Assembly: GCA_009914755.4 (NCBI GenBank)
Contig: CP086569.2
Location: 29,344,001-29,408,000 of the forward strand
Direction: 5' to 3'
DNA: 64,000 nucleotides
Source of the DNA: the human T2T-CHM13v2.0 reference genome, Homo sapiens
How positions within the stretch are numbered: the stretch's first letter is position 1; each line of letters opens with the position of its first letter. Positions 1,528-54,070 of this stretch are shown piece by piece. Both the position numbers and the translations under genes were made by a program. The notes under the pieces were generated by a model, which was not told the DNA's origin, ran no database searches, and saw only the letters and a program-made list of their open reading frames with translations.

Positions 1528-1848
<321 letters not shown>

Positions 1849-2420: not shown

Positions 2421-12087
<9,667 letters not shown>

Positions 12088-31100: not shown

Positions 31101-31726
31101 GAATAGAACAGAATGGAATCAAATCGAATGAAATGGAATGGAATAGAAAGGAATGGAATGAAATGGAATGGAAAGGATTCGAATGGAATGCAATCGAATG
31201 GAATGGAATCGAACGGAATGGAATAAAATGGAAGAAAACTGGCAAGAAATGGAATCGAAATGAATGGAGTGTTATGGAACGGACTCAAAAGGAATTGAAT
31301 GTAATAGAATGGAGTGGAGTGGACTCGAATATAATGGACTGGAATGGAATGAAATCACATGGAATGGGAACGAATGGAATGGAATGGAAAGGAATGGAAT
31401 CGAATGGAAAGGAATCGAATGGAAGGGAATGAAATTGAATCAACAGGAATGGAAGGGAATAGAATAGACGGTAATGGAATGGACTCGAATAGAATGGACA
31501 CGAATGCTCAAATTGAATGGACTCGAATGGAATGGAAACGAAAGGAATGTCATCGAATGGAATTGAATCGATTGGAATGAAATCGCATAGAATGGAGTGG
31601 AATCCAATGGAATTGAATCGAAAGGAAAGGAAGCGAATGGACTGAAATGAAATGGAATGGAATTGAATGGAAAGTAATGCAATGGAATAGAATGGAACGA
31701 AATTTCACGGAATGGAATCAAACTGA
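28189..31726 (+). repeat. HSat3 HOR unit U5 (3538 bp; subtype B)
   Basis: Anchor period. Confidence 0.85.
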
Positions 31727-34700
31727 ATGGAATCAAATCAATGGAATCTAATCAAATGGAATGGAAAGGAATTGAATGGAGTAGATGGGATTGGATGGGA
31801 TTGGAATGAAATGTACAGGAAGAGACTCGAATTTTATGAATCGGAATGGAATGAATTGGAACGGAATGGACTCGAATGGAATGGAATGTCATGGAATGGC
31901 ATCAAATGGAATGGTATCAAATGGAATGGAATCGAATGCAATGGAATGCTATGGAATGGAATGGAATGCATTGGAATGGAATGTCCTCTAATGGAATGGA
32001 TTCGAGTGGAATGGAATCGAATATAATGGAGTCGAATGAAATGGAATTGAAAGGAATGGGATCGAATACAATGGAATATACTGGTATGTAACGTAATGTA
32101 CTCGAATGTAATTGACTGGAATGGAATGTACATGAATGGAATGTAATCGAATGGAAAGTAATCCAATGGAATAGAATCTAATGCAATAAAATCGACTGAA
32201 ATAGAATAGAATGTAATGGAATGGAGTGCAGTGCAATGGAATGGAATGGAATGCAATGCAATGGAATGGAATGTAATGGAATGGAATGGAATGGGATGGA
32301 ATGGTAAGGAATGGATAGTAATGGACTGGAGTGAAATGGACTGGAAAGGAATGGACTCAAATTGAAAGGGCTCGAAAGGAACGGAGTCAAATGGAATGGT
32401 CTGGAATGGAATGAACACGAATGTAATGCAATCCAATAGAATGGAATCGAATGGCATGGAATATAAAGAAATGGAATCGAAGAGAATGGAAACAAATGGA
32501 ATGGAATTGAATGGAATGGAATTGAATGGAATGGGAAGGAATGGAGTGAAATTGTATGCAGTAGAAGAGAATAGAAAGGAATGCAAGCGAAAGGAAAGGA
32601 ATGGATTGCAATGGAATGGAATTCATTGGAATGGAAGGGAATGTAGTGTAATGGACAGGCCTGGAATAAAGTGGAATGCTACGGTCTCGAATGGAATAAA
32701 AATGTATGGAATGGAATGCAATGAAACGGAATCGAATGTCATAGAATGTAATGGAATGCAAAAAAATGGAATCCAAAATCATTGACTGGAAAGGCTGTGT
32801 GTCGAAAGGAATTGAATCCAATGGAATGGAATCGAATGGAATGGAAGTGAATAGAATCGAACTAAATCGAATGGAATGGAATTGATAGGAACGGAATGGA
32901 AAGGAATGCAATGATTTGGCATGGAATGGAATCGAATGGCATCGAATGGAATGGAATGGAATGCAATGGAATGGAATGTATTAGAATGTAATGAACATTA
33001 ATGGAATGTACTCGAATGGATTCGACTGGAATGGAATGTTCTCGATGTGAATGGACTCCAATGGAATGGATTCGAAAGGAATGGAATCGAACGGAATGGC
33101 ATCTAATGGAATGGAATTAAATGGAAATGAATCAAATTGAATAGCACGGAATTGAATTGAATGGAATCGAATGCAATGGAATCTAATGAAACGGAAAGGA
33201 AAGGAATGGAATGGAATGGAATGGGCTGGAATGGAATGGAATCGAAACGAATGGAATGGAATCGAACTGAAGAGACTGGAATGGAATGCACTGGAATGGA
33301 AGGGAGTGTAATAGAAGGTTCTCGAAAAAATTGGAATCGAATGGAATGGAATTGAATGGAACGGAATAGAGTCGAATGGAATTGAATGGAATGGAATGGA
33401 CTAGAGTGAAATGGAATCGAACCACAAGGAATGGACAGGAATAGAATGGTCTCGAATTGAAAGGAATCGTATGGAATGGCATCAAACGGAATGGAATGGA
33501 CAGCCACGGAATGGAATGCACTCGAATGCAATGGAGTCGAAACTAATGGACTGGAATAGAATGGACTCGACTGGTACGGACTCCAATGGAATGGAATCGA
33601 ATGGAAGGGAATTGAACGGAATGGACTCGAAGGGAAAAGACTGCAATGGAAAGATCTCGAATGGAATGGAAATTAATGGAATGGAATGGAATCGAATGAA
33701 ATGGAGTCAAAAGGAATGGAATCGAATGGCAAGAAATCGAATGTAATGGAATCACAAGGAATTGATGTGAAGGGAACGGAATGGAATGGAATCCAAAGGA
33801 ATGGAATAGAATGGAATGGAATCGAATGGAAAGCACTCGAATGGAAATCACTCGAATAGAATTCATTTTAATAAAATAGGATCAAATGTAATGGAATGGA
33901 ATGGAAAGGAATCGAAACGAAATTAATGGAGACAGATGGAATGGAATGGAACAGAGAGCAATGGTATAGAATGGAATGGAATCATCTGGAATGGAATTGA
34001 ATGGAATGGAATAATGTGAAATGGAATGGAATGGAATGGAATGCCCTTGAATTAAATGGACTGGAATGGAATGGACTCGAACAGAGTGGAATGGAAAGTG
34101 TTGAAATAGAATGGAATGGACTCCTTTGGAATGGTCTAGTATGCAATGCAATCGACTGGCAGGGAATCAAAAGGAATGTAATCGAATGGATTGGACTGGA
34201 ATGCAATGGACTCGAATAGATTGGAAACGGAATGCAAAGGAATGGAATGCAATAGTATGGAATGGAATGGAAAGGAATGGAGTGGAATAGACTAGAGTGG
34301 AATGGAATGGACTGGAAAGCAATGGACTGGAATGGAACTTTCTTGAATGGACTGGAATCAAACGGAATGGAATGCAATGCAATCAAATGGCATGGAATAA
34401 AATAGAATGAAAGAGAATCAAATGGAATTGAATTGAATGGAATCGAATGGATTGGAAAGGAATAGAATGGAATGGAATGGAATTGACTCAAATGGAATGG
34501 ACTAGAATGGAATGGATTCGAATGGAAGGCAAAGGAATGGAATCTATTGGAATGGACTGTAATGGAATGGAATGGAAGGGATTGGAATGGACTCGAATGG
34601 AATGGACTGCAATAGAAAGGATTCGAATGGAATGAAAAAGAATTGAATGGAATAGAACAGAATGGAATCAAATCGAATGAAATGGAATGGAATAGAAAGG

Positions 34701-37574
34701 AATGGAATGAAATGGAATGGAAAGGATTCGAATGGAATGCAATCGAATGGAATGCAGTCGAACGGAATGGAATCGAACGGAATGGAATAAAATGGAAGAA
34801 AACTGGCAAGAAATGGAATCGAAATGAATGGAGTGTTATGGGTCGGACTCAAAAGGAATTGAATGTAATAGAATGGAGTGGAGTGGACTCGAATATAATG
34901 GACTGGAATGGAATGAAATCACATGGAATGGGAACGAATGGAATGGAATGGAAATGAATGGAATCGAATGGAAAGGAATCGAATGGAAATCACTCGAATA
35001 GAATGCAATTTAATAAAATAGGATCAAATGTAATGGAATGGAATGGAAAGGAATCGAAACGAAAGGAATGGAGACAGATGCAATGGAATGGAACAGAGAG
35101 CAATGGTATAGAATGCAATGGAATCATCTGGAATGGAATTGAATGGAATGGAATAATATGAAATGGAATGGAATGGAATGGAATGCCCTTGAATTAAATG
35201 GACTGGAATGGAATGGACTCGAACAGAGTGGAATGAAAAGTGTTGAGATAGAATGGAATGGACTCTTTTGGAATGGTCTAGTATGCAATGCAATCGACTG
35301 GCAGGGAATCAAAAGGAATGTAATCGAATGGATTGGACTGGAATGCAATGGACTCGAATAGATTGGAAACGGAATGCAAAGGAATGGAATGGAATAGTAT
35401 GGAATGGAATGGAAAGGAATGGAGTGGAATAGACTAGAGTGGAATGGAATGGACTGGAAAACAATGGACTGGAATGGAACTTTCTTGAATGGACTGGAAT
35501 CAAACGGAATGGAATGCAATGCAATCAAATGGCATGGAATAAAATAGAATGAAAGAGAATCAAATGGAATTGAATCGAATGGAATCGAATGGATTGGAAA
35601 GGAATAGAATGGAATGGAATGGAATTGACTCAAATGGAATGGACTAGAATGGAATGGATTCGAATGGAAGGCAAAGGAATGGAATCTATTGGAATGGACT
35701 GTAATGGAATGGAATGGAAGGGATTGGAATGGACTCGAATGGAATGGACTGCAATAGAAAGGATTCGAATGGAATGAAAAAGAATTGAATGGAATAGAAC
35801 AGAATGGAATCAAATCGAATGAAATGGAATGGAATAGAAAGGAATGGAATGAAATGGAATGGAAAGGATTCGAATGGAATGCAATCGAATGGAATGCAAT
35901 CGAACGGAATGGAATCGAACGGAATGGAATAAAATGGAAGAAAACTGGCAAGAAATGGAATCGAAATGAATGGAGTGTTATGGAACGGACTCAAAAGGAA
36001 TTGAATGTAATAGAATGGAGTGGAGTGGACTCGAATATAATGGACTGGAATGGAATGAAATCACATGGAATGGGAACGAATGGAATGGAATGGAAAGGAA
36101 TGGAATCGAATGGAAAGGAATCGAATGGAAATCACTCGAATAGAATGCAATTTAATAAAATAGGATCAAATGTAATGGAATGGAATGGAAAGGAATCGAA
36201 ACGAAAGGAATGGAGACAGATGGAATGGAATGGAACAGAGAGCAATGGTATAGAATGGAATGGAATCATCAGGAATGGAATTGAATGGAATGGAATAATA
36301 TGAAATGGAATGGAATGGAATGGAATGCCCTTGAATTAAATGGACTGGAATGGAATGGACTCGAACAGAGTGGAATGAAAAGTGTTGAGATAGAATGGAA
36401 TGGACTCTTTTGGAATGGTCTAGTATGCAATGCAATCGACTGGCAGCGAATCAAAAGGAATGTAATCGAATGGATTGGACTGGAATGCAATGGACTCGAA
36501 TAGATTGGAAACGGAATGCAAAGGAATGGAATGGAATAGTATGGAATGGAATGGAAAGGAATGGAGTGGAATAGACTAGAGTGGAATGGAATGGACTGGA
36601 AAGCAATGGACTGGAATGGAACTTTCTTGAATGGACTGGAATCAAACGGAATGGAATGCAATGCAATCAAATGGCATGGAATAAAATAGAATGAAAGAGA
36701 ATCAAATGGAATTGAATCGAATGGAATCGAATGGATTGGAAAGGAATAGAATGGAATGGAATGGAATTGACTCAAATGGAATGGACTAGAATGGAATGGA
36801 TTCGAATGGAAGGCAAAGGAATGGAATCTATTGGAATGGACTGTAATGGAATGGAATGGAAGGGATTGGAATGGACTCGAATGGAATGGACTGCAATAGA
36901 AAGGATTCGAATGGAATGAAAAAGAATTGAATGGAATAGAACAGAATGGAATCAAATCGAATGAAATGGAATGGAATAGAAAGGAATGGAATGAAATGGA
37001 ATGGAAAGGATTCGAATGGAATGCAATCGAATGGAATGCAATCGAACGGAATGGAATCGAACGGAATGGAATAAAATGGAAGAAAACTGGCAAGAAATGG
37101 AATCGAAAGGAATGGAGTGTTATGGAACGGACTCAAAAGGAATTGAATGTAATAGAATGGAGTGGAGTGGACTCGAATATACTGGACTGGAATGGAATGA
37201 AATCACATGGAATGGGAACGAATGGAATGGAATGGAAAGGAATGGAATCGAATGGAAAGGAATCGAATGGAAGGGAATGAAATTGAATCAACAGGAATGG
37301 AAGGGAATTGAATAGACGGTAATGGAATGGACTCGAATAGAATGGACACGAATGCTCAAATTGAATGGACTCGAATGGAATGGAAACGAAAGGAATGTCA
37401 TCGAATGGAATTGAATCGATTGGAATGAAATCGCATGGAATGGAGTGGAATCCAATGGAATTGAATCGAAAGGAAAGGAAGCGAATGGACTGAAATGAAA
37501 TGGAATGGAATGGAATGGAAAGTAATGCAATGGAATAGAATGGAACGAAATTTCACGGAATGGAATCAAACTGA
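31727..37574 (+). repeat. Expanded HSat3 HOR variant U6 (5848 bp): a canonical unit with an internal 1142-bp segment present three times
   Basis: The next anchor is 5848 bp away. The segment beginning ggaaatcactcgaatagaat[g/t]ca[a/t]tttaataaaatagg occurs at ~33844, ~34984 and ~36126 (spacing 1140 and 1142 bp). The track 275-aa minus-strand ORFs at 33982, 35124 and 36269 show the same 1142-bp spacing. Confidence 0.85.
33844..37267 (+). repeat. Three tandem copies of a 1142-bp intra-HOR segment (unit offsets ~2117-3258) inside U6
   Basis: Seen directly. Copy junctions fall at ...gaatggaaaggaatcgaatggaa|atcactcgaatag, inside a short stretch of self-similarity (ggaatcgaatggaaagga[c/a]tcgaatggaa) that is present at both ends of the segment. 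This is the expected footprint of unequal exchange. Confidence 0.8.
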
Positions 37575-40500
37575 ATGGAATCAAATCAATGGAATATAAT
37601 CAAATGGAATGGAAAGGAATTGAATGGAGTAGATGGGATTGGATGGGATTGGAATGAAATGTACTGGAAAAGACTCGAATTTTATGAAACGGAATGGAAT
37701 GAATTGGAACGGAATGGACTCGAATGGAATGGAATGTCATGGAATGGCATCAAATGGAATGGCATCAAATGGAATGGAATCGAATGCAATGGAATGCTAT
37801 GGAATGGAATGGAATGCATTGGAATGGAATGTCCTCTAATGGAATGGATTCGAGTGGAATGGAATCGAATATAATGGAGTCGAATGAAATGGAATTGAAA
37901 GGAATGGGATCGAATACAATGGAATATACTGGAATGTAACGTAATGAACTCGAATGTAATTGACTGGAATGGAATGTACATGAATGGAATGTAATCGAAT
38001 GGAAAGTAATCCAATGGAATAGAATCTAATGCAATAAAATCGACTCAAATAGAATAGAATGTAATGGAATGGAGTGCAGTGCAATGGAATGGAATGGAAT
38101 GGAATTCAATGCAATGGAATGTAATGGAATGGAATGGAATGGGATGGAATGGTATGGAATGGATAGTAATGGACTGGAGTGAAATGGACTGGAAAGGAAT
38201 GGACTCAAATTGAAAGGGCTCGAAAGGAATGGAGTCAAATGGAATGGTCTGGAATGGAATGAACACGAATGTAATGCAATCCAATAGAATGGAATCGAAT
38301 GGCATGGAATATAAAGAAATGGAATCGAAGAGAATGGAAACAAATGGAATGGAATTGAATGGAATGGAATTGAATGGAATGGGAAGGAATGGAGTGAAAT
38401 TGTATGCAGTAGAAGAGAATAGAATGGAATGCAAGCGAAAGGAAAGGAATGGATTTCAATGGAATGGAATTCATTGGAATGGAAGGGAATGTAGTGTAAT
38501 GGACAGGCCTGGAATAAAGTGGAATGCTACGGTCTCGAATGGAATAAAAATGTATGGAATGGAATGCAATGAAACGGAATCGAATGTCATAGAATGTAAT
38601 GGAATGCAAAAAAATGGAATCCAAAATCATTGACTGGAAAGGCTGTGTGTCGAAAGGAATTGACTCCAATGGAATGGAATCGAATGGAATGGAAGTGAAT
38701 AGAATCGAACTAAATCGAATGGAATGGAATTGATAGGAACGGAATGGAAAGGAATGCAATGATTTGGCATGGAATGGAATCGAATGGCATCGAATGGAAT
38801 GGAATGGAATGCAATGGAATGGAATGTATTAGAATGTAATGAACATTAATGGAATGTACTCGAATGGATTCGACTGGAATGGAATGTTCTAGAAGTGAAT
38901 GGACTCCAATGGAATGGATTCGAAAGGAATGGAATCGAACGGAATGACATCTAATGGAATGGAATTAAATGGAAATGAATCAAATTGAATAGCATGGAAT
39001 TGAATTGAATGGAATCGAATGCAATGGAATCTAATGAAACGGAAAGGAAAAGAATGGAATGGAATGGAATGGGCTGGAATGGAATGGAATCGAAACGAAT
39101 GGAATGGAATCGAACTGAAGAGACTGGAATGGAATGCACTGGAATGGAAGGGAGTGTAGTGGAAGGTTCTCGAAAAAAATGGAATCGAATGGAATGGAAT
39201 TGAATGGAACGGAATAGAGTCGAATGGAATTGAATGGAATGGAATGGACTAGAGTGAAATGGAATCGAACCACAAGGAATGGACTGGAATAGAATGGTCT
39301 CGAATTGAAAGGAATCGTATGGAATAGCATCAAACGGAATGGAATGGACAGCCACGGAATGGAATGCACTCGAATGCAATGGAGTCGAAACTAATGGACT
39401 GGAATAGAATGGACTCGACTGGTACGGACTCCAATGTAATGGAATCGAATGGAAGGGAATCGAACGGAATGGACTCGAAGGGAATAGACTGCAATGGAAA
39501 GGTCTCGAATGTAATGGAAATTAATGGAATGGAATGGAATCGAATGAAATGGAGTCAAAAGGAATGGAATCGAATGGCAAGAAATCGAATGGAATGGAAT
39601 CACAAGGAATTGATGTGAACGGAACGGAATGGAATGGAATCCAAAGGAATGGAATAGAATGGAATGGAATCGAATGGAAAGGACTCGAATGGAAATCACT
39701 CGAATAGAATGCAATTTAATAAAATAGGATCAAATGTAATGGAATGGAATGGAAAGGAATCGAAATGAAAGGAATGGAGACAGATGGAATGGAATGGAAC
39801 AGAGAGCAATGGTATAGAATGGAATGGAATCATCTGGAATGGAATTGAATGGAATGGAATAATATGAAATGGAATGGAATGGAATGGAATGCCCTTGAAT
39901 TAAATGGACTGGAATGGAATGGACTCGAACAGAGTGGAATGGAAAGTGTTGAAATAGAATGGAATGGACTCCTTTGGAATGGTCTAGTATGCAATGCAAT
40001 CGACTGGCAGGGAATCAAAAGGAATGTAATCGAATGGATTGGACTGGAATGCAATGGACTCGAATAGATTGGAAACGGAATGCAAAGGAATGGAATGGAA
40101 TAGTATGGAATGGAATGGAAAGGAATGGAGTGGAATAGACTAGAGTGGAATGGAATGGACTGGAAAGCAATGGACTGGAATGGAACTTTCTTGAATGGAC
40201 TGGAATCAAACGGAATGGAATGCAATGCAATCAAATGGCATGGAATAAAATAGAATGAAAGAGAATCAAATGGAATTGAATCGAATGGAATCGAATGGAT
40301 TGGAAAGGAATAGAATGGAATGGAATGGAATTGACTCAAATGGAATGGACTAGAATGGAATGGATTCGAATGGAAGGCAAAGGAATGGAATCTATTGGAA
40401 TGGACTGTAATGGAATGGAATGGAAGGGATTGGAATGGACTCGAATGGAATGGACTGCAATAGAAAGGATTCGAATGGAATGAAAAAGAATTGAATGGAA

Positions 40501-41123
40501 TAGAACAGAATGGAATCAAATCGAATGAAATGGAATGGAATAGAAAGGAATGGAATGAAATGGAATGGAAAGGATTCGAATGGAATGCAATCGAATGGAA
40601 TGGAATCGAACGGAATGGAATAAAATGGAAGAAAACTGGCAAGAAATGGAATCGAAATGAATGGAGTGTTATGGAACGGACTCAAAAGGAATTGAATGTA
40701 ATAGAATGGAGTGGAGTGGACTCGAATATACTGGACTGGAATGGAATGAAATCACATGGAATGGGAACGAATGGAATGGAATGGAAAGGAATGGAATCGA
40801 ATGGAAAGGAATCGAATGGAAGGGAATGAAATTGAATCAACAGGAATGGAAGGGAATAGAATAGACGGTAATGGAATGGACTCGAATAGAATGGACACGA
40901 ATGCTCAAATTGAATGGACTCGAATGGAATGGAAACGAAAGGAATGTCATCGAATGGAATTGAATCGATTGGAATGAAATCGCATAGAATGGAGTGGAAT
41001 CCAATGGAATTGAATCGAAAGGAAAGGAAGCGAATGGACTGAAATGAAATGGAATGGAATTGAATGGAAAGTAATGCAATGGAATAGAATGGAACGAAAT
41101 TTCACGGAATGGAATCAAACTGA
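37575..41123 (+). repeat. HSat3 HOR unit U7 (3549 bp; subtype B)
   Basis: Anchor period. Carries the private variant atggaatataatcaaatgg (NIIKW in the track peptide), which is shared with U9. Confidence 0.85.
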
Positions 41124-44100
41124 ATGGAATCAAATCAATGGAATCTAATCAAATGGAATGGAAAGGAATTGAATGGAGTAGATGGGATTGGATGGGATTG
41201 GAATGAAATGTACAGGAAGAGACTCGAATTTTATGAATCGGAATGGAATGAATTGGAACGGAATGGACTCGAATGGAATGGAATGTCATGGAATGGCATC
41301 AAATGGAATGGTATCAAATGGAATGGAATCGAATGCAATGGAATGCTATGGAATGGAATGGAATGCATTGGAATGGAATGTCCTCTAATGGAATGGATTC
41401 GAGTGGAATGGAATCGAATATAATGGAGTCGAATGAAATGGAATTGAAAGGAATGGGATCGAATACAATGGAATATACTGGTATGTAACGTAATGTACTC
41501 GAATGTAATTGACTGGAATGGAATGTACATGAATGGAATGTAATCGAATGGAAAGTAATCCAATGGAATAGAATCTAATGCAATAAAATCGACTGAAATA
41601 GAATAGAATGTAATGGAATGGAGTGCAGTGCAATGGAATGGAATGGAATGCAATGCAATGGAATGGAATGTAATGGAATGGAATGGAATGGGATGGAATG
41701 GTAAGGAATGGATAGTAATGGACTGGAGTGAAATGGACTGGAAAGGAATGGACTCAAATTGAAAGGGCTCGAAAGGAACGGAGTCAAATGGAATGGTCTG
41801 GAATGGAATGAACACGAATGTAATGCAATCCAATAGAATGGAATCGAATGGCATGGAATATAAAGAAATGGAATCGAAGAGAACGGAAACAAATGGAATG
41901 GAATTGAATGGAATGGAATTGAATGGAATGGGAAGGAATGGAGTGAAATTGTATGCAGTAGAAGAGAATAGAAAGGAATGCAAGCGAAAGGAAAGGAATG
42001 GATTGCAATGGAATGGAATTCATTGGAATGGAAGGGAATGTAGTGTAATGGACAGGCCTGGAATAAAGTGGAATGCTACGGTCTCGAATGGAATAAAAAT
42101 GTATGGAATGGAATGCAATGAAACGGAATCGAATGTCATAGAATGTAATGGAATGCAAAAAAATGGAATCCAAAATCATTGACTGGAAAGGCCGTGTGTC
42201 GAAAGGAATTGAATCCAATGGAATGGAATCGAATGGAATGGAAGTGAATAGAATCGAACTAAATCGAATGGAATGGAATTGATAGGAACGGAATGGAAAG
42301 GAATGCAATGATTTGGCATGGAATGGAATCGAATGGCATCGAATGGAATGGAATGGAATGCAATGGAATGGAATGTATTAGAATGTAATGAACATTAATG
42401 GAATGTACTCGAACGGATTCGACTGGAATGGAATGTTCTCGATGTGAATGGACTCCAATGGAATGGATTCGAAAGGAATGGAATCGAACGGAATGGCATC
42501 TAATGGAATGGAATTAAATGGAAATGAATCAAATTGAATAGCACGGAATTGAATTGAATGGAATCGAATGCAATGGAATCTAATGAAACGGAAAGGAAAG
42601 GAATGGAATGGAATGGAATGGGCTGGAATGGAATGGAATCGAAACGAATGGAATGGAATCGAACTGAAGAGACTGGAATGGAATGCACTGGAATGGAAGG
42701 GAGTGTAATAGAAGGTTCTCGAAAAAATTGGAATCGAATGGAATGGAATTGAATGGAACGGAATAGAGTCGAATGGAATTGAATGGAATGGAATGGACTA
42801 GAGTGAAATGGAATCGAACCACAAGGAATGGACAGGAATAGAATGGTCTCGAATTGAAAGGAATCGTATGGAATGGCATCAAACGGAATGGAATGGACAG
42901 CCACGGAATTTAATGCACTCGAATGCAATGGAGTCGAAACTAATGGACTGGAATAGAATGGACTCGACTGGTACGGACTCCAATGGAATGGAATCGAATG
43001 GAAGGGAATTGAACGGAATGGACTCGAAGGGAAAAGACTGCAATGGAAAGATCTCGAATGGAATGGAAATTAATGGAATGGAATGGAATCGAATGAAATG
43101 GAGTCAAAAGGAATGGAATCGAATGGCAAGAAATCGAATGTAATGGAATCACAAGGAATTGATGTGAAGGGAACGGAATGGAATGGAATCCAAAGGAATG
43201 GAATAGAATGGAATGGAATCGAATGGAAAGCACTCGAATGGAAATCACTCGAATAGAATTCATTTTAACAAAATAGGATCAAATGTAATGAAATGGAATG
43301 GAAAGGAATCGAAACGAAAGTAATGGAGACAGATGGAATGGAATGGAACAGAGAGCAATGGTATAGAATGGAATGGAATCATCTGGAATGGAATTGAATG
43401 GAATGGAATAATGTGAAATGGAATGGAATGGAATGGAATGCCCTTGAATTAAATGGACTGGAATGGAATGGACTCGAACAGAGTGGAATGGAAAGTGTTG
43501 AAATAGAATGGAATGGACTCCTTTGGAATGGTCTAGTATGCAATGCAATCGACTGGCAGGGAATCAAAAGGAATGTAATAGAATGGATTGGACTGGAATG
43601 CAATGGACTCGAATAGATTGGAAACGGAATGCAAAGGAATGGAATGCAATAGTATGGAATGGAATGGAAAGGAATGGAGTGGAATAGACTAGAGTGGAAT
43701 GGAATGGACTGGAAAGCAATGGACTGGAATGGAACTTTCTTGAATGGACTGGAATCAAACGGAATGGAATGCAATGCAATCAAATGGCATGGAATAAAAT
43801 AGAATGAAAGAGAATCAAATGGAATTGAATTGAATGGAATCGAATGGATTGGAAAGGAATAGAATGGAATGGAATGGAATTGACTCAAATGGAATGGACT
43901 AGAATGGAATGGATTCGAATGGAAGGCAAAGGAATGGAATCTATTGGAATGGACTGTAATGGAATGGAATGGAAGGGATTGGAATGGACTCGAATGGAAT
44001 GGACTGCAATAGAAAGGATTCGAATGGAATGAAAAAGAATTGAATGGAATAGAACAGAATGGAATCAAATCGAATGAAATGGAATGGAATAGAAAGGAAT

Positions 44101-46971
44101 GGAATGAAATGGAATGGAAAGGATTCGAATGGAATGCAATCGAATGGAATGCAGTCGAACGGAATGGAATCGAACGGAATGGAATAAAATGGAAGAAAAC
44201 TGGCAAGAAATGGAATCGAAATGAATGGAGTGTTATGGGACGGACTCAAAAGGAATTGAATGTAATAGAATGGAGTGGAGTGGACTCGAATATAATGGAC
44301 TGGAATGGAATGAAATCACATGGAATGGGAACGAATGGAATGGAATGGAAATGAATGGAATCGAATGGAAAGGAATCGAATGGAAATCACTCGAATAGAA
44401 TGCAATTTAATAAAATAGGATCAAATGTAATGGAATGGAATGGAAAGGAATCGAAACGAAAGGAATGGAGACAGATGCAATGGAATGGAACAGAGAGCAA
44501 TGGTATAGAATGCAATGGAATCATCTGGAATGGAATTGAATGGAATGGAATAATATGAAATGGAATGGAATGGAATGGAATGCCCTTGAATTAAATGGAC
44601 TGGAATGGAATGGACTCGAACAGAGTGGAATGAAAAGTGTTGAGATAGAATGGAATGGACTCTTTTGGAATGGTCTAGTATGCAATGCAATCGACTGGCA
44701 GGGAATCAAAAGGAATGTAATCGAATGGATTGGACTGGAATGCAATGGACTCGAATAGATTGGAAACGGAATGCAAAGGAATGGAATGGAATAGTATGGA
44801 ATGGAATGGAAAGGAATGGAGTGGAATAGACTAGAGTGGAATGGAATGGACTGGAAAACAATGGACTGGAATGGAACTTTCTTGAATGGACTGGAATCAA
44901 ACGGAATGGAATGCAATGCAATCAAATGGCATGGAATAAAATAGAATGAAAGAGAATCAAATGGAATTGAATCGAATGGAATCGAATGGATTGGAAAGGA
45001 ATAGAATGGAATGGAATGGAATTGACTCAAATGGAATGGACTAGAATGGAATGGATTCGAATGGAAGGCAAAGGAATGGAATCTATTGGAATGGACTGTA
45101 ATGGAATGGAATGGAAGGGATTGGAATGGACTCGAATGGAATGGACTGCAATAGAAAGGATTCGAATGGAATGAAAAAGAATTGAATGGAATAGAACAGA
45201 ATGGAATCAAATCGAATGAAATGGAATGGAATAGAAAGGAATGGAATGAAATGGAATGGAAAGGATTCGAATGGAATGCAATCGAATGGAATGCAATCGA
45301 ACGGAATGGAATCGAACGGAATGGAATAAAATGGAAGAAAACTGGCAAGAAATGGAATCGAAATGAATGGAGTGTTATGGAACGGACTCAAAAGGAATTG
45401 AATGTAATAGAATGGAGTGGAGTGGACTCGAATATAATGGACTGGAATGGAATGAAATCACATGGAATGGGAACGAATGGAATGGAATGGAAAGGAATGG
45501 AATCGAATGGAAAGGAATCGAATGGAAATCACTCGAATAGAATGCAATTTAATAAAATAGGATCAAATGTAATGGAATGGAATGGAAAGGAATCGAAACG
45601 AAAGGAATGGAGACAGATGGAATGGAATGGAACAGAGAGCAATGGTATAGAATGGAATGGAATCATCTGGAATGGAATTGAATGGAATGGAATAATATGA
45701 AATGGAATGGAATGGAATGGAATGCCCTTGAATTAAATGGACTGGAATGGAATGGACTCGAACAGAGTGGAATGAAAAGTGTTGAGATAGAATGGAATGG
45801 ACTCTTTTGGAATGGTCTAGTATGCAATGCAATCGACTGGCAGCGAATCAAAAGGAATGTAATCGAATGGATTGGACTGGAATGCAATGGACTCGAATAG
45901 ATTGGAAACGGAATGCAAAGGAATGGAATGGAATAGTATGGAATGGAATGGAAAGGAATGGAGTGGAATAGACTAGAGTGGAATGGAATGGACTGGAAAG
46001 CAATGGACTGGAATGGAACTTTCTTGAATGGACTGGAATCAAACGGAATGGAATGCAATGCAATCAAATGGCATGGAATAAAATAGAATGAAAGAGAATC
46101 AAATGGAATTGAATCGAATGGAATCGAATGGATTGGAAAGGAATAGAATGGAATGGAATGGAATTGACTCAAATGGAATGGACTAGAATGGAATGGATTC
46201 GAATGGAAGGCAAAGGAATGGAATCTATTGGAATGGACTGTAATGGAATGGAATGGAAGGGATTGGAATGGACTCGAATGGAATGGACTGCAATAGAAAG
46301 GATTCGAATGGAATGAAAAAGAATTGAATGGAATAGAACAGAATGGAATCAAATCGAATGAAATGGAATGGAATAGAAAGGAATGGAATGAAATGGAATG
46401 GAAAGGATTCGAATGGAATGCAATCGAATGGAATGCAATCGAACGGAATGGAATCGAACGGAATGGAATAAAATGGAAGAAAACTGGCAAGAAATGGAAT
46501 CGAAATGAATGGAGTGTTATGGAACGGACTCAAAAGGAATTGAATGTAATAGAATGGAGTGGAGTGGACTCGAATATACTGGACTGGAATGGAATGAAAT
46601 CACATGGAATGGGAACGAATGGAATGGAATGGAAAGGAATGGAATCGAATGGAAAGGAATCGAATGGAAGGGAATGAAATTGAATCAACAGGAATGGAAG
46701 GGAATAGAATAGACGGTAATGGAATGGACTCGAATAGAATGGACACGAATGCTGAAATTGAATGGACTCGAATGGAATGGAAACGAAAGGAATGTCATCG
46801 AATGGAATTGAATCGATTGGAATGAAATCGCATGGAATGGAGTGGAATCCAATGGAATTGAATCGAAAGGAAAGGAAGCGAATGGACTGAAATGAAATGG
46901 AATGGAATTGAATGGAAAGTAATGCAATGGAATAGAATGGAACGAAATTTCACGGAATGGAATCAAACTGA
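41124..46971 (+). repeat. Expanded HSat3 HOR variant U8 (5848 bp), near-identical duplicate of U6 with the same 1142-bp triplication
   Basis: The 275-aa ORFs at 43379, 44521 and 45663 match, copy for copy, those at 33982, 35124 and 36269. They share the same private substitutions (RSTAFHS and YYCIPFLC in copy 1; QSIVFQS and TLFIPLC in copy 2; LLIRCQS in copy 3). Confidence 0.85.
43241..46666 (+). repeat. Three tandem copies of the 1142-bp intra-HOR segment inside U8
   Basis: The ggaaatcactcgaatagaat motif occurs at ~43241, ~44382 and ~45524. Confidence 0.8.
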
Positions 46972-49900
46972 ATGGAATCAAATCAATGGAATATAATCAA
47001 ATGGAATGGAAAGGAATTGAATGGAGTAGATGGGATTGGATGGGATTGGAATGAAATGTACTGGAAAAGACTCGAATTTTATGAAACGGAATGGAATGAA
47101 TTGGAACGGAATGGACTCGAATGGAATGGAATGTCATGGAATGGCATCAAATGGAATGGCATCAAATGGAATGGAATCGAATGCAATGGAATGCTATGGA
47201 ATGGAATGGAATGCATTGGAATGGAATGTCCTCTAATGGAATGGATTCGAGTGGAATGGAATCGAATATAATGGAGTCGAATGAAATGGAATTGAAAGGA
47301 ATGGGATCGAATACAATGGAATATACTGGAATGTAACGTAATGAACTCGAATGTAATTGACTGGAATGGAATGTACATGAATGGAATGTAATCGAATGGA
47401 AAGTAATCCAATGGAATAGAATCTAATGCAATAAAATCGACTCAAATAGAATAGAATGTAATGGAATGGAGTGCAGTGCAATGGAATGGAATGGAATGGA
47501 ATTCAATGCAATGGAATGTAATGGAATGGAATGGAATGGGATGGAATGGTATGGAATGGATAGTAATGGACTGGAGTGAAATGGACTGGAAAGGAATGGA
47601 CTCAAATTGAAAGGGCTCGAAAGGAATGGAGTCAAATGGAATGGTCTGGAATGGAATGAACACGAATGTAATGCAATCCAATAGAATGGAATCGAATGGC
47701 ATGGAATATAAAGAAATGGAATCGAAGAGAATGGAAACAAATGGAATGGAATTGAATGGAATGGAATTGAATGGAATGGGAAGGAATGGAGTGAAATTGT
47801 ATGCAGTAGAAGAGAATAGAATGGAATGCAAGCGAAAGGAAAGGAATGGATTTCAATGGAATGGAATTCATTGGAATGGAAGGGAATGTAGTGTAATGGA
47901 CAGGCCTGGAATAAAGTGGAATGCTACGGTCTCGAATGGAATAAAAATGTATGGAATGGAATGCAATGAAACGGAATCGAATGTCATAGAATGTAATGGA
48001 ATGCAAAAAAAATGGAATCCAAAATCATTGACTGGAAAGGCTGTGTGTCGAAAGGAATTGACTCCAATGGAATGGAATCGAATGGAATGGAAGTGAATAG
48101 AATCGAACTAAATCGAATGGAATGGAATTGATAGGAACGGAATGGAAAGGAATGCAATGATTTGGCATGGAATGGAATCGAATGGCATCGAATGGAATGG
48201 AATGGAATGCAATGGAATGGAATGTATTAGAATGTAATGAACATTAATGGAATGTACTCGAATGGATTCGACTGGAATGGAATGTTCTAGAAGTGAATGG
48301 ACTCCAATGGAATGGATTCGAAAGGAATGGAATCGAACGGAATGGCATCTAATGGAATGGAATTAAATGGAAATGAATCAAATTGAATAGCACGGAATTG
48401 AATTGAATGGAATCGAATGCAATGGAATCTAATGAAACGGAAAGGAAAGGAATGGAATGGAATGGAATGGGCTGGAATGGAATGGAATCGAAACGAATGG
48501 AATGGAATCGAACTGAAGAGACTGGAATGGAATGCACTGGAATGGAAGGGAGTGTAGTGGAAGGTTCTCGAAAAAAATGGAATCGAATGGAATGGAATTG
48601 AATGGAACGGAATAGAGTCGAATGGAATTGAATGGAATGGAATGGACTAGAGTGAAATGGAATTGAACCACAAGGAATGGACTGGAATAGAATGGTCTCG
48701 AATTGAAAGGAATCGTATGGAATCGCATCAAACGGAATGGAATGGACAGCCACGGAATGGAATGCACTCGAATGCAATGGAGTCGAAACTAATGGACTGG
48801 AATAGAATGGACTCGACTGGTACGGACTCCAATGGAATGGAATCGAATGGAAGGGAATCGAACGGAATGGACTCGAAGGGAAAAGACTGCAATGGAAAGG
48901 TCTCGAATGGAATGGAAATTAATGGCATGGAATGGAATCGAATGAAATGGAGTCAAAAGGAATGGAATCGAATGGCAAGAAATCGAATGGAATGGAATCA
49001 CAAGGAATTGATGTGAACGGAACGGAATGGAATGGAATCCAAAGGAATGGAATAGAATGGAATGGAATCGAATGGAAAGGACTCGAATGGAAATCACTCG
49101 AATAGAATGCAATTTAATAAAATAGGATCAAATGTAATGGAATGGAATGGAAAGGAATCGAAATGAAAGGAATGGAGAAAGATGGAATGGAATGGAGCAG
49201 AGAGCAATGGTATAGAATGGAATGGAATCATCTGGAATGGAATTGAATGGAATGGAATAATATGAAATGGAATGGAATGGAATGGAATGCCCTTGAATTA
49301 AATGGACTGGAATGGAATGGACTCGAACAGAGTGGAATGGAAAGTGTTGAAATAGAATGGAATGGACTCCTTTGGAATGGTCTAGTATGCAATGCAATCG
49401 ACTGGCAGGGAATCAAAAGGAATGTAATCGAATGGATTGGAGTGGAATGCAATGGACTCGAATAGATTGGAAACGGAATGCAAAGGAATGGAATGGAATA
49501 GTATGGAATGGAATGGAAAGGAATGGAGTGGAATAGACTAGAGTGGAATGGAATGGACTGGAAAGCAATGGACTGGAATGGAACTTTCTTGAATGGACTG
49601 GAATCAAACGGAATGGAATGCAATGCAATCAAATGGCATGGAATAAAATAGAATGAAAGAGAATCAAATGGAATTGAATCGAATGGAATCGAATGGATTG
49701 GAAAGGAATAGAATGGAATGGAATGGAATTGACTCAAATGGAATGGACTAGAATGGAATGGATTCGAATGGAAGGCAAAGGAATGGAATCTATTGGAATG
49801 GACTGTAATGGAATGGAATGGAAGGGATTGGAATGGACTCGAATGGAATGGACTGCAATAGAAAGGATTCGAATGGAATGAAAAAGAATTGAATGGAATA

Positions 49901-50521
49901 GAACAGAATGGAATCAAATCGAATGAAATGGAATGGAATAGAAAGGAATGGAATGAAATGGAATGGAAAGGATTCGAATGGAATGCAATCGAATGGAATG
50001 GAATCGAACGGAATGGAATAAAATGGAAGCAAACTGGCAAGAAATGGAATCGAAATGAATGGAGTGTTATGGAACGGACTCAAAAGGAATTGAATGTAAT
50101 AGAATGGAGTGGAGTGGACTCGAATATACTGGACTGGAATGGAATGAAATCACATGGAATGGGAACGAATGGAATGGAATGGAAAGGAATGGAATCGAAT
50201 GGAAAGGAATCGAATGGAAGGGAATGAAATTGAATCAACAGGAATGGAAGGGAATAGAATAGACGGTAATGGAATGGACTCGAATAGAATGGACACGAAT
50301 GCTGAAATTGAATGGACTCGAATGGAATGGAAACGAAAGGAATGTCATCGAATGGAATTGAATCGATTGGAATGAAATCGCATAGAATGGAGTGGAATCC
50401 AATGGAATTGAATCGAAAGGAAAGGAAGCGAATGGACTGAAATGAAATGGAATGGAATTGAATGGAAAGTAATGCAATGGAATAGAATGGAACGAAATTT
50501 CACGGAATGGAATCAAACTGA
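46972..50521 (+). repeat. HSat3 HOR unit U9 (3550 bp), near-identical duplicate of U7
   Basis: The anchor ORF peptide is identical to U7, including the NIIKW variant. The distance 37575->46972 is 9397 bp, equal to 31727->41124. Confidence 0.85.
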
Positions 50522-53500
50522 ATGGAATCAAATCAATGGAATCTAATCAAATGGAATGGAAAGGAATTGAATGGAGTAGATGGGATTGGATGTGATTGGA
50601 ATGAAATGTACTGGAAAAGACTCGAATTTTATGAAACGGTATGGAATGAATTGGAACGGAATGGACTCGAATGGAATGGAATGTCATGGAATGGCATCAA
50701 ATGGAATGGCATCAAATGGAATGGAATCGAATGCAATGGAATGCTATGGAATGGAATGGAATGCATTGGAATGGAATGTCCTCTAATGGAATGGATTCGA
50801 GTGGAATGGAATCGAATATAATGGAGTCGAATGAAATGGAATTGAAAGGAATGGGATCGAATACAATGGAATATACTGGAATGTAACGTAATGAACTCGA
50901 ATGTAATTGACTGGAATGGAATGTACATGAATGGAATGTAATCGAATGGAAAGTAATCCAATGGAATAGAATCTAATGCAATAAAATCGACTCAAATAGA
51001 ATAGAATGTAATGGAATGGAGTGCAGTGCAATGGAATGGAATGGAATGGAATGCAATGCAATGGAATGTAATGGAATGGAATGGAATGGGATGGAATGGT
51101 ATGGAATGGATAGTAATGGACTGGAGTGAAATGGACTGGAAAGGAATGGACTCAAATTGAAAGGGCTCGAAAGGAATGGAGTCAAATGGAATGGTCTGGA
51201 ATGGAATGAACACGAATGTAATGCAATCCAATAGAATGGAATCGAATGGCATGGAATATAAAGAAATGGAATCAAAGAGAATGGAAACAAATGGAATGGA
51301 ATTGAATGGAATGGAATTGAATGGAATGGGAAGGAATGGAGTGAAATTGTATGCAGTAGAAGAGAATAGAATGGAATGCAAGCGAAAGGAAAGGAATGGA
51401 TTGCAATGGAATGGAATTCATTGGAATGGAAGGGAATGTAGTGTAATGGACAGGCCTGGAATAAAGTGGAATGCTACGGTCTCGAATGGAATAAAAATGT
51501 ATGGAATGGAATGCAATGAAACGGAATCGAATGTCATAGAATGTAATGGAATGCAAAAAAATGGAATCCAAAATCATTGACTGGAAAGGCTGTGTGTCGA
51601 AAGGAATTGACTCCAATGGAATGGAATCGAATGGAATGGAAGTGAATAGAATCGAACTAAATCGAATGGAATGGAATTGATAGGAACGGAATGGAAAGGA
51701 ATGCAATGATTTGGCATGGAATGGAATCGAATGGCATCGAACGGAATGGAATGGAATGCAATGGAATGGAATGTATTAGAATGTAATGAACATTAATGGA
51801 ATGTACTCGAATGGATTCGACTGGAATGGAATGTTCTAGAAGTGAATGGACTCCAATGGAATGGATTCGAAAGGAATGGAATCGAACGGAATGGCATCTA
51901 ATGGAATGGAATTAAATGGAAATGAATCAAATTGAATAGCACGGAATTGAATTGAATGGAATCGAATGCAATGGAATCTAATGAAACGGAAAGGAAAGGA
52001 ATGGAATGGAATGGAATGGGCTGGAATGGAATGGAATCGAAACGAATGGAATGGAATCGAACTGAAGAGACTGGAATGGAATGCACTGGAATGGAAGGGA
52101 GTGTAGTGGAAGGTTCTCGAAAAAAATGGAATCGAATGGAATGGAATTGAATGGAACGGAATAGAGTCGAATGGAATTGAATGGAATGGAATGGACTAGA
52201 GTGAAATGGAATCGAACCACAAGGAATGGACTGGAATAGAATGGTCTCGAATTGAAAGGAATCGTATGGAATGGCATCAAACGGAATGGAATGGACAGCC
52301 ACGGAATGGAATGCACTCGAATGCAATGGAGTCGAAACTAATGGACTGGAATAGAATGGACTCGACTGGTACGGACTCCAATGGAATGGAATCGAATGGA
52401 AGGGAATCGAACGCAATGGACTCGAAGGGAAAAGACTGCAATGGAAAGGTCTCGAATGGAATGGAAATTAATGGAATGGAATGGAATCGAATGAAATGGA
52501 GTCAAAAGGAATGGAATCGAGTGGCAAGAAATCGAATGGAATGGAATCACAAGGAATTGATGTGAACGGAACGGAATGGAATGGAATCCAAAGGAATGGA
52601 ATAGAATGGAATGGAATCGAATGGAAAGGACTCGAATGGAAATCACTCGAATAGAATGCAATTTAATAAAATAGGATCAAATGTAATGGAATGGAATGGA
52701 AAGGAATCGAAATGAAAGGAATGGAGACAGATGGAATGGAATGGAACAGAGAGCAATGGTATAGAATGGAATGGAATCATCTGGAATGGAATTGAATGGA
52801 ATGGAATAATATGAAATGGAATGGAATGGAATGGAATGCCCTTGAATTAAATGGACTGGAATGGAATGGACTCGAACAGAGTGGAATGGAAAGTGTTGAA
52901 ATAGAATGGAATGGACTCCTTTGGAATGGTCTAGTATGCAATGCAATCGACTGGCAGGGAATCAAAAGGAATGTAATCGAATGGATTGGACTGGAATGCA
53001 ATGGACTCGAATAGATTGGAAACGGAATGCAAAGGAATGGAATGGAATAGTATGGAATGGAATGGAAAGGAATGGAGTGGAATAGACTAGAGTGGAATGG
53101 AATGGACTGGAAAGCAATGGACTGGAATGGAACTTTCTTGAATGGACTGGAATCAAACGGAATGGAATGCAATGCAATCAAATGGCATGGAATAAAATAG
53201 AATGAAAGAGAATCAAATGGAATTGAATCGAATGGAATCGAATGGATTGGAAAGGAATAGAATGGAATGGAATGGAATTGACTCAAATGGAATGGACTAG
53301 AATGGAATGGATTCGAATGGAAGGCAAAGGAATGGAATCTATTGGAATGGACTGTAATGGAATGGAATGGAAGGGATTGGAATGGACTCGAATGGAATGG
53401 ACTGCAATAGAAAGGATTCGAATGGAATGAAAAAGAATTGAATGGAATAGAACAGAATGGAATCAAATCGAATGAAATGCAATGGAATAGAAAGGAATGG

Positions 53501-54070
53501 AATGAAATGGAATGGAAAGGATTCGAATGGAATGCAATCGAATGGAATGGAATCGAACGGAATGGAATAAAATGGAAGAAAACTGGCAAGAAATGGAATC
53601 GAAATGAATGGAGTGTTATGGAACGGACTCAAAAGGAATTGAATGTAATAGAATGGAGTGGAGTGGACTCGAATATACTGGACTGGAATGGAATGAAATC
53701 ACATGGAATGGGAACGAATGGAATGGAATGGAAAGGAATGGAATCGAATGGAAAGGAATCGAATGGAAGGGAATGAAATTGAATCAACAGGAATGGAAGG
53801 GAATAGAATAGACGGTAATGGAATGGACTCGAATAGAATGGACACGAATGCTGAAATTGAATGGACTCGAATGGAATGGAAACGAAAGGAATGTCATCGA
53901 ATGGAATTGAATCGATTGGAATGAAATCGCATAGAATGGAGTGGAATCCAATGGAATTGAATCGAAAGGAAAGGAAGCGAATGGACTGAAATGAAATGGA
54001 ATGGAATTGAATGGAAAGTAATGCAATGGAATAGAATGGAACGAAATTTCACGGAATGGAATCAAACTGA
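50522..54070 (+). repeat. HSat3 HOR unit U10 (3549 bp)
   Basis: Anchor period. Its private variants (GIGCDW, ETVWNE and KRYGMNW in the track peptides) are shared only with U11. Confidence 0.85.

What the first reader, a model, noticed from the sequence alone, without database searches (positions are those of the whole stretch)
31727..50521. A ~9.4-kb super-unit (expanded 5.85-kb HOR + canonical 3.55-kb HOR) is present twice in tandem
Anchors 31727->41124 and 41124->50522 are 9397 and 9398 bp apart. U8 reproduces U6 copy for copy, including the private substitutions of each of the three 1142-bp copies. U9 reproduces U7, including the atggaatataatcaaatgg variant. Amplification therefore operated on a 9.4-kb block after the triplication arose. 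This is a second, nested tier of higher-order periodicity on top of the 3.5-kb HOR.
Basis: seen in the sequence. Interest (0 to 1): 0.55.

Follow-up and report, generated by a model that had tools for sequence, protein, structure and literature searches.

The report
Two-unit tandem duplication in Y-chromosome DYZ1
Within the human Y-chromosome DYZ1 satellite, a 9.4-kb block made of one enlarged 5.85-kb repeat unit and one normal 3.55-kb unit was copied once, head to tail, which is an ordinary product of unequal exchange in satellite DNA and not a new layer of organisation.

Summary
Window 31727-41123 (9397 bp) and 41124-50521 (9398 bp) are tandem copies that differ by 29 substitutions and 1 single-base indel (99.68%). 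Each consists of a 5848-bp expanded unit, carrying three 1142-bp copies, followed by a canonical ~3549-bp unit. The copy-specific variants of the triplication recur in both blocks, so the triplication came first.

The array is human DYZ1 (HSat3A6) next to a DYZ2 block. A published 3564-bp DYZ1 unit aligns full length at 96.5-98.6%.

- U7/U9 (99.58%) are no closer than the neighbouring canonical pairs U10/U11 (99.66%) and U9/U10 (99.49%). The case for a block duplication therefore rests on U6/U8 and on adjacency.
- There are only two copies, flanked by canonical units. That is one duplication event, not a second tier of periodicity.

The 1142-bp expansion arose by exchange inside a 10-bp stretch (TCGAATGGAA) within a 33-bp internal direct repeat.

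The most likely mechanism is unequal sister-chromatid exchange, about 4,000 generations ago at the published Yq12 mutation rate. This is a known kind of event and of low interest.

The parts
1..12990 (-). Flanking DYZ2 (HSat1B) block: five ~2.42-kb AT-rich units, each holding an old Alu fragment
   Evidence: GC is 0.20-0.27. Dominant k-mer offsets are 2418/2416 bp, and there are five minus-strand matches to an AluY consensus at 76-77% identity. This matches the published description of DYZ2.
13023..64000 (-). DYZ1 (HSat3A6) array: (GGAAT)n-based units of ~3.55 kb, with the CATTC strand on the minus strand
   Evidence: TRF finds period 5 over 13033-64000. There is one GGCC per unit, spaced 3504-3564 bp. 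A published 3564-bp DYZ1 unit aligns full length to the minus strand of each unit at 96.5-98.6%. The HSat3A6-specific 24-mer hits 11 times and the 24-mers of 13 other HSat subfamilies hit 0 times.
31727..41123 (+). Block copy 1 (9397 bp) = U6 + U7
41124..50521 (+). Block copy 2 (9398 bp) = U8 + U9; 99.68% identical to copy 1
   Evidence: 29 substitutions (10 transitions, 19 transversions) and 1 single-base indel. Their positions fit a uniform spread (KS p=0.06).
31727..37574 (+). U6: expanded 5848-bp DYZ1 unit
   Evidence: Diagonals against canonical U7 are 0, +15, +1142, +1157, +2284 and +2299. It shares 17 substitutions with U8, absent from all canonical units, in its first 2087 bp.
33814..34955 (+). 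U6 1142-bp copy A (the most diverged copy; continues the diverged 5' lineage)
   Evidence: A and B differ at 19 sites. Copy A carries about 10 private sites.
34956..36097 (+). U6 1142-bp copy B
   Evidence: B and C differ at 7 sites.
36098..37239 (+). U6 1142-bp copy C
34930..35001 (+). A|B expansion junction (72-nt signature). The exchange point lies in TCGAATGGAA, inside a 33-bp internal direct repeat.
36072..36143 (+). B|C expansion junction, with the same structure
37575..41123 (+). U7: canonical 3549-bp unit
41124..46971 (+). U8: expanded 5848-bp unit, paralogue of U6 (15 substitutions, 0 indels). A private T>C change creates a second GGCC at 42190.
43211..46636 (+). U8 copies A (43211-44352), B (44353-45494) and C (45495-46636), with junction signatures at 44327-44398 and 45469-45540
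46972..50521 (+). U9: canonical 3550-bp unit, inferred paralogue of U7
   Evidence: 14 mismatches and 1 indel against U7. Shared derived sites are at unit positions 22, 532 and 882.

Best explanation
The window crosses a DYZ2-to-DYZ1 boundary in the human Yq12 heterochromatin. Inside the DYZ1 array, one structurally variant unit had already grown from about 3.55 to 5.85 kb. It did so through two rounds of unequal exchange at a 33-bp internal direct repeat, which produced three 1142-bp copies.

Later, a single out-of-register exchange duplicated that variant unit together with the canonical unit next to it, giving [U6 U7][U8 U9]. The exchange was most likely between sister chromatids, since this part of the Y has no homologue. 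Canonical units paired one block (9.4 kb) out of register.

The two blocks have since diverged by 0.32%. That is roughly 4,000 generations at the published Yq12 rate.

This is neutral satellite turnover with no function implied. It is a two-copy local duplication, not an array-wide higher-order period.

Shown directly:
- the identity of the satellite
- the structure and the junctions
- the order of events (triplication before block duplication).

Inferred:
- the exchange mechanism
- sister chromatids as the partners
- the date.
For: Identity of the satellite:
- A published DYZ1 HaeIII unit aligns full length at 96.5-98.6%.
- HaeIII-site spacing is 3504-3564 bp, and only the HSat3A6 24-mer hits.
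- The flank is DYZ2 with a ~23%-diverged Alu.
- GC is 38% against 24%, as published.

Duplication:
- The two blocks are 99.68% identical over 9.4 kb.
- U6/U8 are the only 5848-bp units, have no indels between them and share 17 substitutions found in no canonical unit.
- 19 of 26 copy-specific columns are inherited in both blocks.
- All 12 U6 tiles match block 2 best.
- U7 and U9 share 2-3 derived sites.

Real divergence, not sequencing error:
- Differences are 29 substitutions to 1 indel.
- Transitions to transversions are 10:19 between the blocks, the same as 50:89 across the array.
- 14 of the 15 U6/U8 differences are private to one copy.

Mechanism:
- The expansion junction lies inside 10 identical bases within a 32/33-identical repeat.
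- The literature reports unequal-exchange patterns, sister-chromatid exchanges in about 15% of Strand-seq libraries in Yq12, and about one de novo whole-unit structural variant per Y transmission.
- The rate used for dating is 3.86e-7 per bp per generation, applied.
Against: - U7/U9 are no more alike than U10/U11 or U9/U10. In two 500-bp tiles U7 is closer to U10/U11 than to U9. Co-duplication of the canonical half therefore rests on adjacency and few sites.
- The duplication breakpoints cannot be located, because they fall in sequence shared by all canonical units.
- One site (canonical-equivalent 3332) is G in the U8 tail, U9 and U10 but C in U5, U6 and U7. This needs an extra conversion or mutation event.
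- No reads were available to verify the assembly.
- The date depends entirely on which mutation rate is used. A euchromatic Y rate would give a figure more than 10 times older.
Confidence: 0.85

Rival explanations
1. It is a genuine second tier of higher-order repeat. On this view the 9.4-kb [expanded + canonical] block is the unit of a larger array found elsewhere in Yq12, and the window shows only its edge or a two-copy outpost.
For: Between-block identity (99.68%) exceeds the typical identity between canonical units in the window (98.1-99.3%). The expanded unit belongs to a lineage about 0.8% diverged from its neighbours in its first 2 kb, so it may have a history outside this local neighbourhood.
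Against: There are only two copies. Five units upstream and four downstream are canonical and lack the junction signature and the U6/U8-specific substitutions. U10/U11, a plain single-unit pair, are equally similar. The junction was absent from about 127 kb of DYZ1 in public contaminant contigs, covering 35-45 canonical contexts, although that sample is small and mostly short-read consensus.
Confidence: 0.09
2. It is an assembly artefact: a false tandem duplication of one 9.4-kb stretch created while assembling a near-identical satellite.
For: Yq12 is among the hardest regions to assemble, and published assemblies carry flagged errors there. No reads were available here.
Against: The copies differ at 30 sites, about 1 per 313 bp. 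Almost all are substitutions, and their transition:transversion ratio matches long-standing variation between units. A 5848-bp stretch has no indel at all. Error-driven false duplicates would be expected to be nearly identical or to differ mostly by homopolymer indels.
Confidence: 0.04
3. There were two separate events. On this view a U6-type unit was copied into a second slot by gene conversion or a separate insertion, and the U7/U9 likeness is only the general similarity of local canonical units.
For: U7/U9 cannot be told apart from U7/U10 or U10/U11 by identity. Interlocus gene conversion is documented in Yq12, where 17-29% of de novo SNVs have donor matches.
Against: Such a conversion would have to transfer the full 5.85 kb, including a 2.3-kb insertion, and land exactly one canonical unit downstream. 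Reported conversion events are small. U7 and U9 do share derived bases at positions 22, 532 and 882. One exchange explains everything.
Confidence: 0.02

Closest known systems
DYZ1 / HSat3A6 satellite of human Yq12 (3.56-kb HaeIII unit built from CATTC pentamers)
   Same: Pentamer base, about one HaeIII site per 3.5-3.56 kb, 96.5-98.6% full-length identity to a published unit, the subfamily-specific 24-mer, adjacency to DYZ2, and 38% GC.
   Different: Two of the 13 units in the window are 5848 bp because a 1142-bp internal segment is present three times. I found no description of this length variant in the papers read.
Recent tandem duplications and small expansions or deletions in Yq12, attributed to unequal exchange (T2T-Y paper; 43-Y assemblies paper; de novo whole-unit structural variants in the CEPH 1463 pedigree)
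   Same: Head-to-tail duplication of whole repeat units in one orientation, with homology-driven exchange. Published de novo structural variants span 1-2 units (2,416-4,839 bp).
   Different: The published examples are either megabase-scale (up to 5 Mb) or DYZ2 events. This one is a 9.4-kb DYZ1 event old enough (0.32% diverged) that the two blocks share no exact 2000-mer. The longest stretch without a difference is 1428 bp, so it would not show in the published 2000-mer dot plot.
Higher-order repeat variants and multi-unit 'super-repeats' in alpha satellite and other human satellites
   Same: A structurally variant unit plus its neighbour are propagated together, which produces a longer local period.
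   Different: Those are called a higher-order tier only when the longer period recurs many times and is homogenised. Here it occurs twice.

Membership tests
DYZ1 / HSat3A6 | Array built from diverged (CATTC/GGAAT)n pentamers | tested here: met
   TRF finds period 5 over 13033-64000 with consensus GGAAT. Strong G-over-C and A-over-T skew.
DYZ1 / HSat3A6 | ~3.56-kb unit bounded by HaeIII (GGCC) sites | tested here: met
   One GGCC per canonical unit, with spacings 3537, 3564, 3518, 3538, 3539, 3549, 3550, 3549, 3548 and 3504 bp. Spacing is 5848 bp across the expanded units.
DYZ1 / HSat3A6 | Sequence identity to a published DYZ1 unit | tested here: met
   The 3564-bp unit from PMC3925983 Additional file 1 aligns over positions 1-3564 to ten units at 96.5-98.5%, and to the partial last unit at 98.6%.
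DYZ1 / HSat3A6 | Subfamily-specific 24-mer (TCGTTTCGATTCCTTTCCATTCCA; PMC4022460) | tested here: met
   11 exact hits, all on the minus strand. The top 24-mers of 13 other HSat2/3 subfamilies give 0 hits.
DYZ1 / HSat3A6 | Interspersed with DYZ2 (HSat1B: ~2.4-kb unit, AT-rich, with a ~20%-diverged AluY fragment) | tested here: met
   Positions 1-~12990 have a 2416-2418-bp period, GC 0.20-0.27 and five Alu matches at 76-77%.
DYZ1 / HSat3A6 | Located on the human Y chromosome (Yq12) | not testable with these tools
   No human assembly is searchable here. The location is inferred from the features above.
Second-tier higher-order repeat (super-HOR) | The longer period recurs many times in tandem | tested here: not met
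   Exactly two blocks. The junction signature is found only at 4 positions, all inside U6 and U8. Flanking units are canonical. Sequence outside the window could not be tested.
Second-tier higher-order repeat (super-HOR) | Units at the same position in different blocks are more alike than neighbouring units | tested here: inconclusive
   Met for U6/U8 (99.74%, with all tiles matching best). Not met for U7/U9 (99.58%, against 99.66% for U10/U11 and 99.49% for U9/U10).
Tandem duplication by unequal (sister-chromatid) exchange | Direct head-to-tail copies with no spacer or foreign sequence at the joint | tested here: met
   Block 2 starts at the base after block 1 ends, and the alignment is collinear with one 1-bp indel.
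Tandem duplication by unequal (sister-chromatid) exchange | Exchange point lies in sequence homologous between the misaligned partners | tested here: inconclusive
   For the 9.4-kb event the breakpoint cannot be resolved, although any position in the canonical parts qualifies. For the earlier 1142-bp expansion it is resolved: a 10-bp identity inside a 33-bp repeat that is 32/33 identical.
Tandem duplication by unequal (sister-chromatid) exchange | Sister chromatids as the exchange partners | not testable with these tools
   Inferred from the lack of a homologue for this part of the Y and from published Strand-seq sister-chromatid exchanges in Yq12.

The most novel reading that the evidence does not exclude
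The 5.85-kb expanded unit and its 9.4-kb block could be a lineage-restricted DYZ1 subtype that is amplified elsewhere in Yq12, or only in certain Y haplogroups. At the satellite mutation rate the duplication dates to about 4,000 generations ago, which falls within the time depth of living Y lineages. The 72-nt junction would then be a simple marker for tracing how individual Yq12 arrays are related across men.
Probability: 0.1. Interest if true: 0.3.

Novelty: new member of a known kind. Interest (0 to 1): 0.14.

Why it matters
It matters little beyond bookkeeping. The finding is a cleanly resolved small example of how the Y-chromosome heterochromatin turns over:
- an internal 33-bp repeat seeds a 1.1-kb expansion
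- the expansion recurs
- the enlarged unit is then carried along in a two-unit duplication.

The distinct junction sequence could serve as a marker for this array in comparisons of complete Y assemblies. It does not show a new organisational principle, and no function is implied.

Tried and rejected
- The repeat finder on 28-58 kb (one search was a parameter error) was swamped by the pentamer background and gave nothing usable. BLAST and k-mer scripts were used instead.
- A first blastn self-comparison of U6 returned nothing after filtering. It was replaced by k-mer diagonals.
- I tested whether partial unit U13 forms a still larger repeat with U1/U2. It does not: U13 is about 2.5% from every unit.
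- I tried to locate the 9.4-kb duplication breakpoint from informative sites. A crossover in the last ~390 bp of U5/U7 is compatible (no U5/U7 differences after position 3157, one U7/U9 difference at 3332). There are too few sites, and it does not explain the G in the U8 tail.
- The 72-nt expansion junction had no hit in metagenome and prokaryote-genome collections. A positive control with the HSat3A6 24-mer found 77 loci holding about 127 kb of DYZ1, none with the junction. This is weak evidence, because most are short consensus contigs.
- Literature searches found no description of a 5.85-kb DYZ1 unit or a 9.4-kb period. Figures and most supplements could not be read.
Full report
**What the window is**

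Positions 1 to about 12990 are AT-rich (GC 0.20-0.27). They have a 2416-2418-bp period and five minus-strand Alu fragments 76-77% identical to an AluY consensus. From 13023/13033 to 64000 the sequence is a (GGAAT)n-based satellite (TRF period 5) with GC about 0.38 and strong strand skew.

Four tests identify this satellite as human DYZ1 (HSat3A6):
- There is one GGCC (HaeIII) site per unit, at spacings of 3504-3564 bp.
- A published 3564-bp DYZ1 HaeIII unit (PMC3925983, Additional file 1) aligns over its full length to the minus strand of every unit at 96.5-98.6%.
- The most common HSat3A6-specific 24-mer of Altemose et al. 2014 (PMC4022460) occurs 11 times. The corresponding 24-mers of 13 other HSat2/3 subfamilies occur 0 times.
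- The flank fits the published description of DYZ2/HSat1B: a ~2.4-kb unit with an AT-rich part and an Alu about 20% diverged.

The window is therefore a DYZ2-to-DYZ1 boundary in Yq12. I could not confirm the chromosomal location directly because no human assembly is searchable with these tools.

**Checking the observation**

Using U7 as probe, the array divides as follows:

| Unit | Coordinates | Length |
|---|---|---|
| U1 | 14046-17577 | canonical |
| U2 | 17578-21131 | canonical |
| U3 | 21132-24649 | canonical |
| U4 | 24650-28188 | canonical |
| U5 | 28189-31726 | canonical |
| U6 | 31727-37574 | 5848 bp |
| U7 | 37575-41123 | 3549 bp |
| U8 | 41124-46971 | 5848 bp |
| U9 | 46972-50521 | 3550 bp |
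| U10 | 50522-54070 | canonical |
| U11 | 54071-57619 | canonical |
| U12 | 57620-61137 | canonical |
| U13 | 61138-64000 | partial |

Block 31727-41123 matches 41124-50521 at 99.681% (29 mismatches, 1 gap). The next-best placements are <=86%. K-mer offsets peak at 3549, 9397/9398, 5848 and 1142.

**Anatomy of the expanded unit**

Compared with canonical U7, U6 runs along diagonals 0, +15, +1142/+1157 and +2284/+2299. A segment equal to canonical positions ~2088-3214, plus a 15-bp insertion also found in canonical U2, is present three times with a period of 1142 bp. In U6 coordinates the copies are A 2088-3229, B 3230-4371 and C 4372-5513.

Copies A and B differ at 19 sites. Copies B and C differ at 7.

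Both junctions have the same structure. The sequence follows the canonical 3' context up to ...GGAAAGGAATCGAATGGAA and then switches to the canonical 5' context (ATCACTCGAATAG...). The switch lies within the 10 bases TCGAATGGAA, which sit inside a 33-bp direct repeat that is 32/33 identical between canonical positions ~2088-2120 and ~3215-3247. This is the signature of unequal exchange at a short internal repeat. A second round, which could use the full 1142 bp of homology, would give the third copy.

The expanded unit is also a mosaic. U6 and U8 share 17 substitutions absent from all ten canonical units in their first 2087 bp. In the repeated zone there is no such substitution common to all three copies, and there is one in the 3' tail. 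Copy A alone carries about 10 further private sites, while B and C are close to canonical. So the A/B difference (1.7%) probably reflects, at least in part, two different parental units joined at the first exchange. It is not simply time elapsed since that exchange. This last point is inference.

**Order of events**

U6 and U8 have the same length, no indels between them and 15 substitutions. Of the 26 columns that vary among the three 1142-bp copies, 19 show the same A/B/C pattern in U6 and U8. The other 7 are single private changes in one copy of one unit. The triplication therefore existed, with its copy-specific variants, before the 9.4-kb block was duplicated.

The identity matrix for canonical units gives:

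| Pair | Differences | Identity |
|---|---|---|
| U7/U9 | 14 mismatches + 1 indel | 99.58% |
| U10/U11 | 12 mismatches | 99.66% |
| U9/U10 | 17 mismatches + 1 indel | 99.49% |
| U7/U10 | 18 mismatches | 99.49% |

So U7/U9 are not 'well above' neighbouring canonical units.

In 500-bp tiles, all 12 tiles of U6 have block 2 as their strictly best match. Of the six U7 tiles, two favour U9, two tie and two favour U10 or U11.

U7 and U9 share derived bases at unit positions 22, 532 and 882. At position 1752 each has a different derived base.

The block duplication is therefore established by U6/U8 and by parsimony. Two expanded paralogues separated by exactly one canonical unit are most simply produced by one two-unit duplication. 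The evidence from U7/U9 is supportive but weak.

Only two blocks exist, and units on both sides are canonical. They lack the junction signature (4 hits, all in U6/U8) and the U6/U8-specific substitutions. 'A second tier of higher-order periodicity' is too strong for this. It is a single duplication, of about the same age as the plain single-unit pair U10/U11.

**Is the divergence real?**

The 30 differences are 29 substitutions and one 1-bp indel. Transitions to transversions are 10:19, the same transversion-rich ratio as across the array (50:89). Their positions are compatible with a uniform spread (KS p=0.06). The U7/U9 half is not significantly richer in differences than the U6/U8 half (binomial p=0.19). 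Fourteen of the 15 U6/U8 differences are private to one copy and occur nowhere else in the aligned units. This looks like independent mutation after a real duplication, not sequencing error. Without reads, however, mis-assembly cannot be formally excluded.

**Mechanism and date**

The male-specific Y has no homologue, so the simplest mechanism is unequal sister-chromatid exchange, with canonical units paired 9.4 kb out of register. Possible pairings are U5 with the ancestral U7, or the 5' part of U6 with U10.

The literature supports this class of event in Yq12:
- About one de novo structural variant per Y transmission, each removing or adding one or two whole DYZ2 units.
- Higher divergence of units near array edges. 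This matches U1/U2, the units next to the DYZ2 boundary, being the most diverged full units on that side.

Using the published Yq12 rate of 3.86e-7 per bp per generation, 0.32% divergence corresponds to about 4,100 generations. With a euchromatic Y rate (from my own knowledge, about 3e-8) it would be more than ten times older. The date is an inference and is sensitive to gene conversion.

The duplication breakpoint could not be placed.

**Elsewhere**

The 72-nt junction has no exact match in the metagenome or prokaryote-genome collections. A positive control with the HSat3A6 24-mer retrieved 77 loci containing about 127 kb of DYZ1 at >=94% identity to U7. These cover 35-45 canonical copies of the two junction contexts, and none carries the junction. 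HaeIII-site spacing in the longer DYZ1 contigs is canonical at 3539-3562 bp. The expanded unit is therefore not common, but the sample is small and mostly short-read consensus.

**Novelty**

The satellite, the mechanism and this class of event are all well described. I did not find this particular 5.85-kb unit or the 9.4-kb two-copy block in the papers I could read. The blocks share no exact 2000-mer (largest gap between differences 1428 bp), so the published T2T-Y 2000-mer dot plot would not show them. I class it as a new member of a known kind, of low interest.

Noticed in passing
window 1-13030: The window starts in a DYZ2 (HSat1B) block: five 2.42-kb units, each with an Alu about 23% diverged on the minus strand. 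It crosses into DYZ1 at about 12980-13030. The DYZ1 units nearest the boundary (U1, U2) are the most diverged full units on that side (98.1-98.6% to the others), in line with the published edge effect.
   Followed up: partly
L068 (BMRF01000076.1, Actinomadura cremea JCM 3308), L077 (CAYVXY010000078.1, Polyangiaceae MAG), L072, L075 and other genome-contig loci: Contigs deposited as bacterial or archaeal genome sequence consist of human Y-chromosome DYZ1. For example, 3574 of 3637 bp of L068 are >=94% identical to U7. This is contamination from male human DNA in species-representative genomes.
   Followed up: partly
window 60830-60860 (U12, canonical positions 3210-3239): U12 lacks 30 bp (six pentamers) exactly within the 3' member of the 33-bp internal repeat that mediated the 1142-bp expansion. 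This suggests the repeat is a local hotspot for slippage or exchange.
   Followed up: no
window 46754 (U8 position 5631), and canonical position 3332 in U9 and U10: Three consecutive units (U8 tail, U9, U10) carry G where U5, U6, U7 and all other units carry C. The shared base crosses the end of block 2 and is not explained by the simple duplication model. It could be a short conversion tract or a trace of the breakpoint.
   Followed up: partly
window 39326 (U7) and 48724 (U9), canonical position 1752: The two inferred paralogues carry two different derived bases (A and C) at a site where every other unit has G.
   Followed up: no
window 13023-64000: Variation between units is rich in transversions (50 transitions to 89 transversions at biallelic sites), the reverse of the usual human genome ratio.
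   Followed up: partly
window 61138-64000 (U13): The partial last unit is about 2.5% diverged from every other unit. It has a 15-bp deletion at canonical 771-785, so unit homogeneity drops again after U12.
   Followed up: partly
window 42187-42190: A private T>C change in U8 creates a second HaeIII site. In a digest, U8 would give 135-bp and 5713-bp fragments instead of one 5848-bp fragment.
   Followed up: yes
L011 (OWMY01000008.1, 13.6 kb of a 55.6-kb contig): This locus has GC 0.60 yet holds an exact HSat3A6 24-mer. It is either a chance match or a chimeric bacterial/human contig.
   Followed up: no
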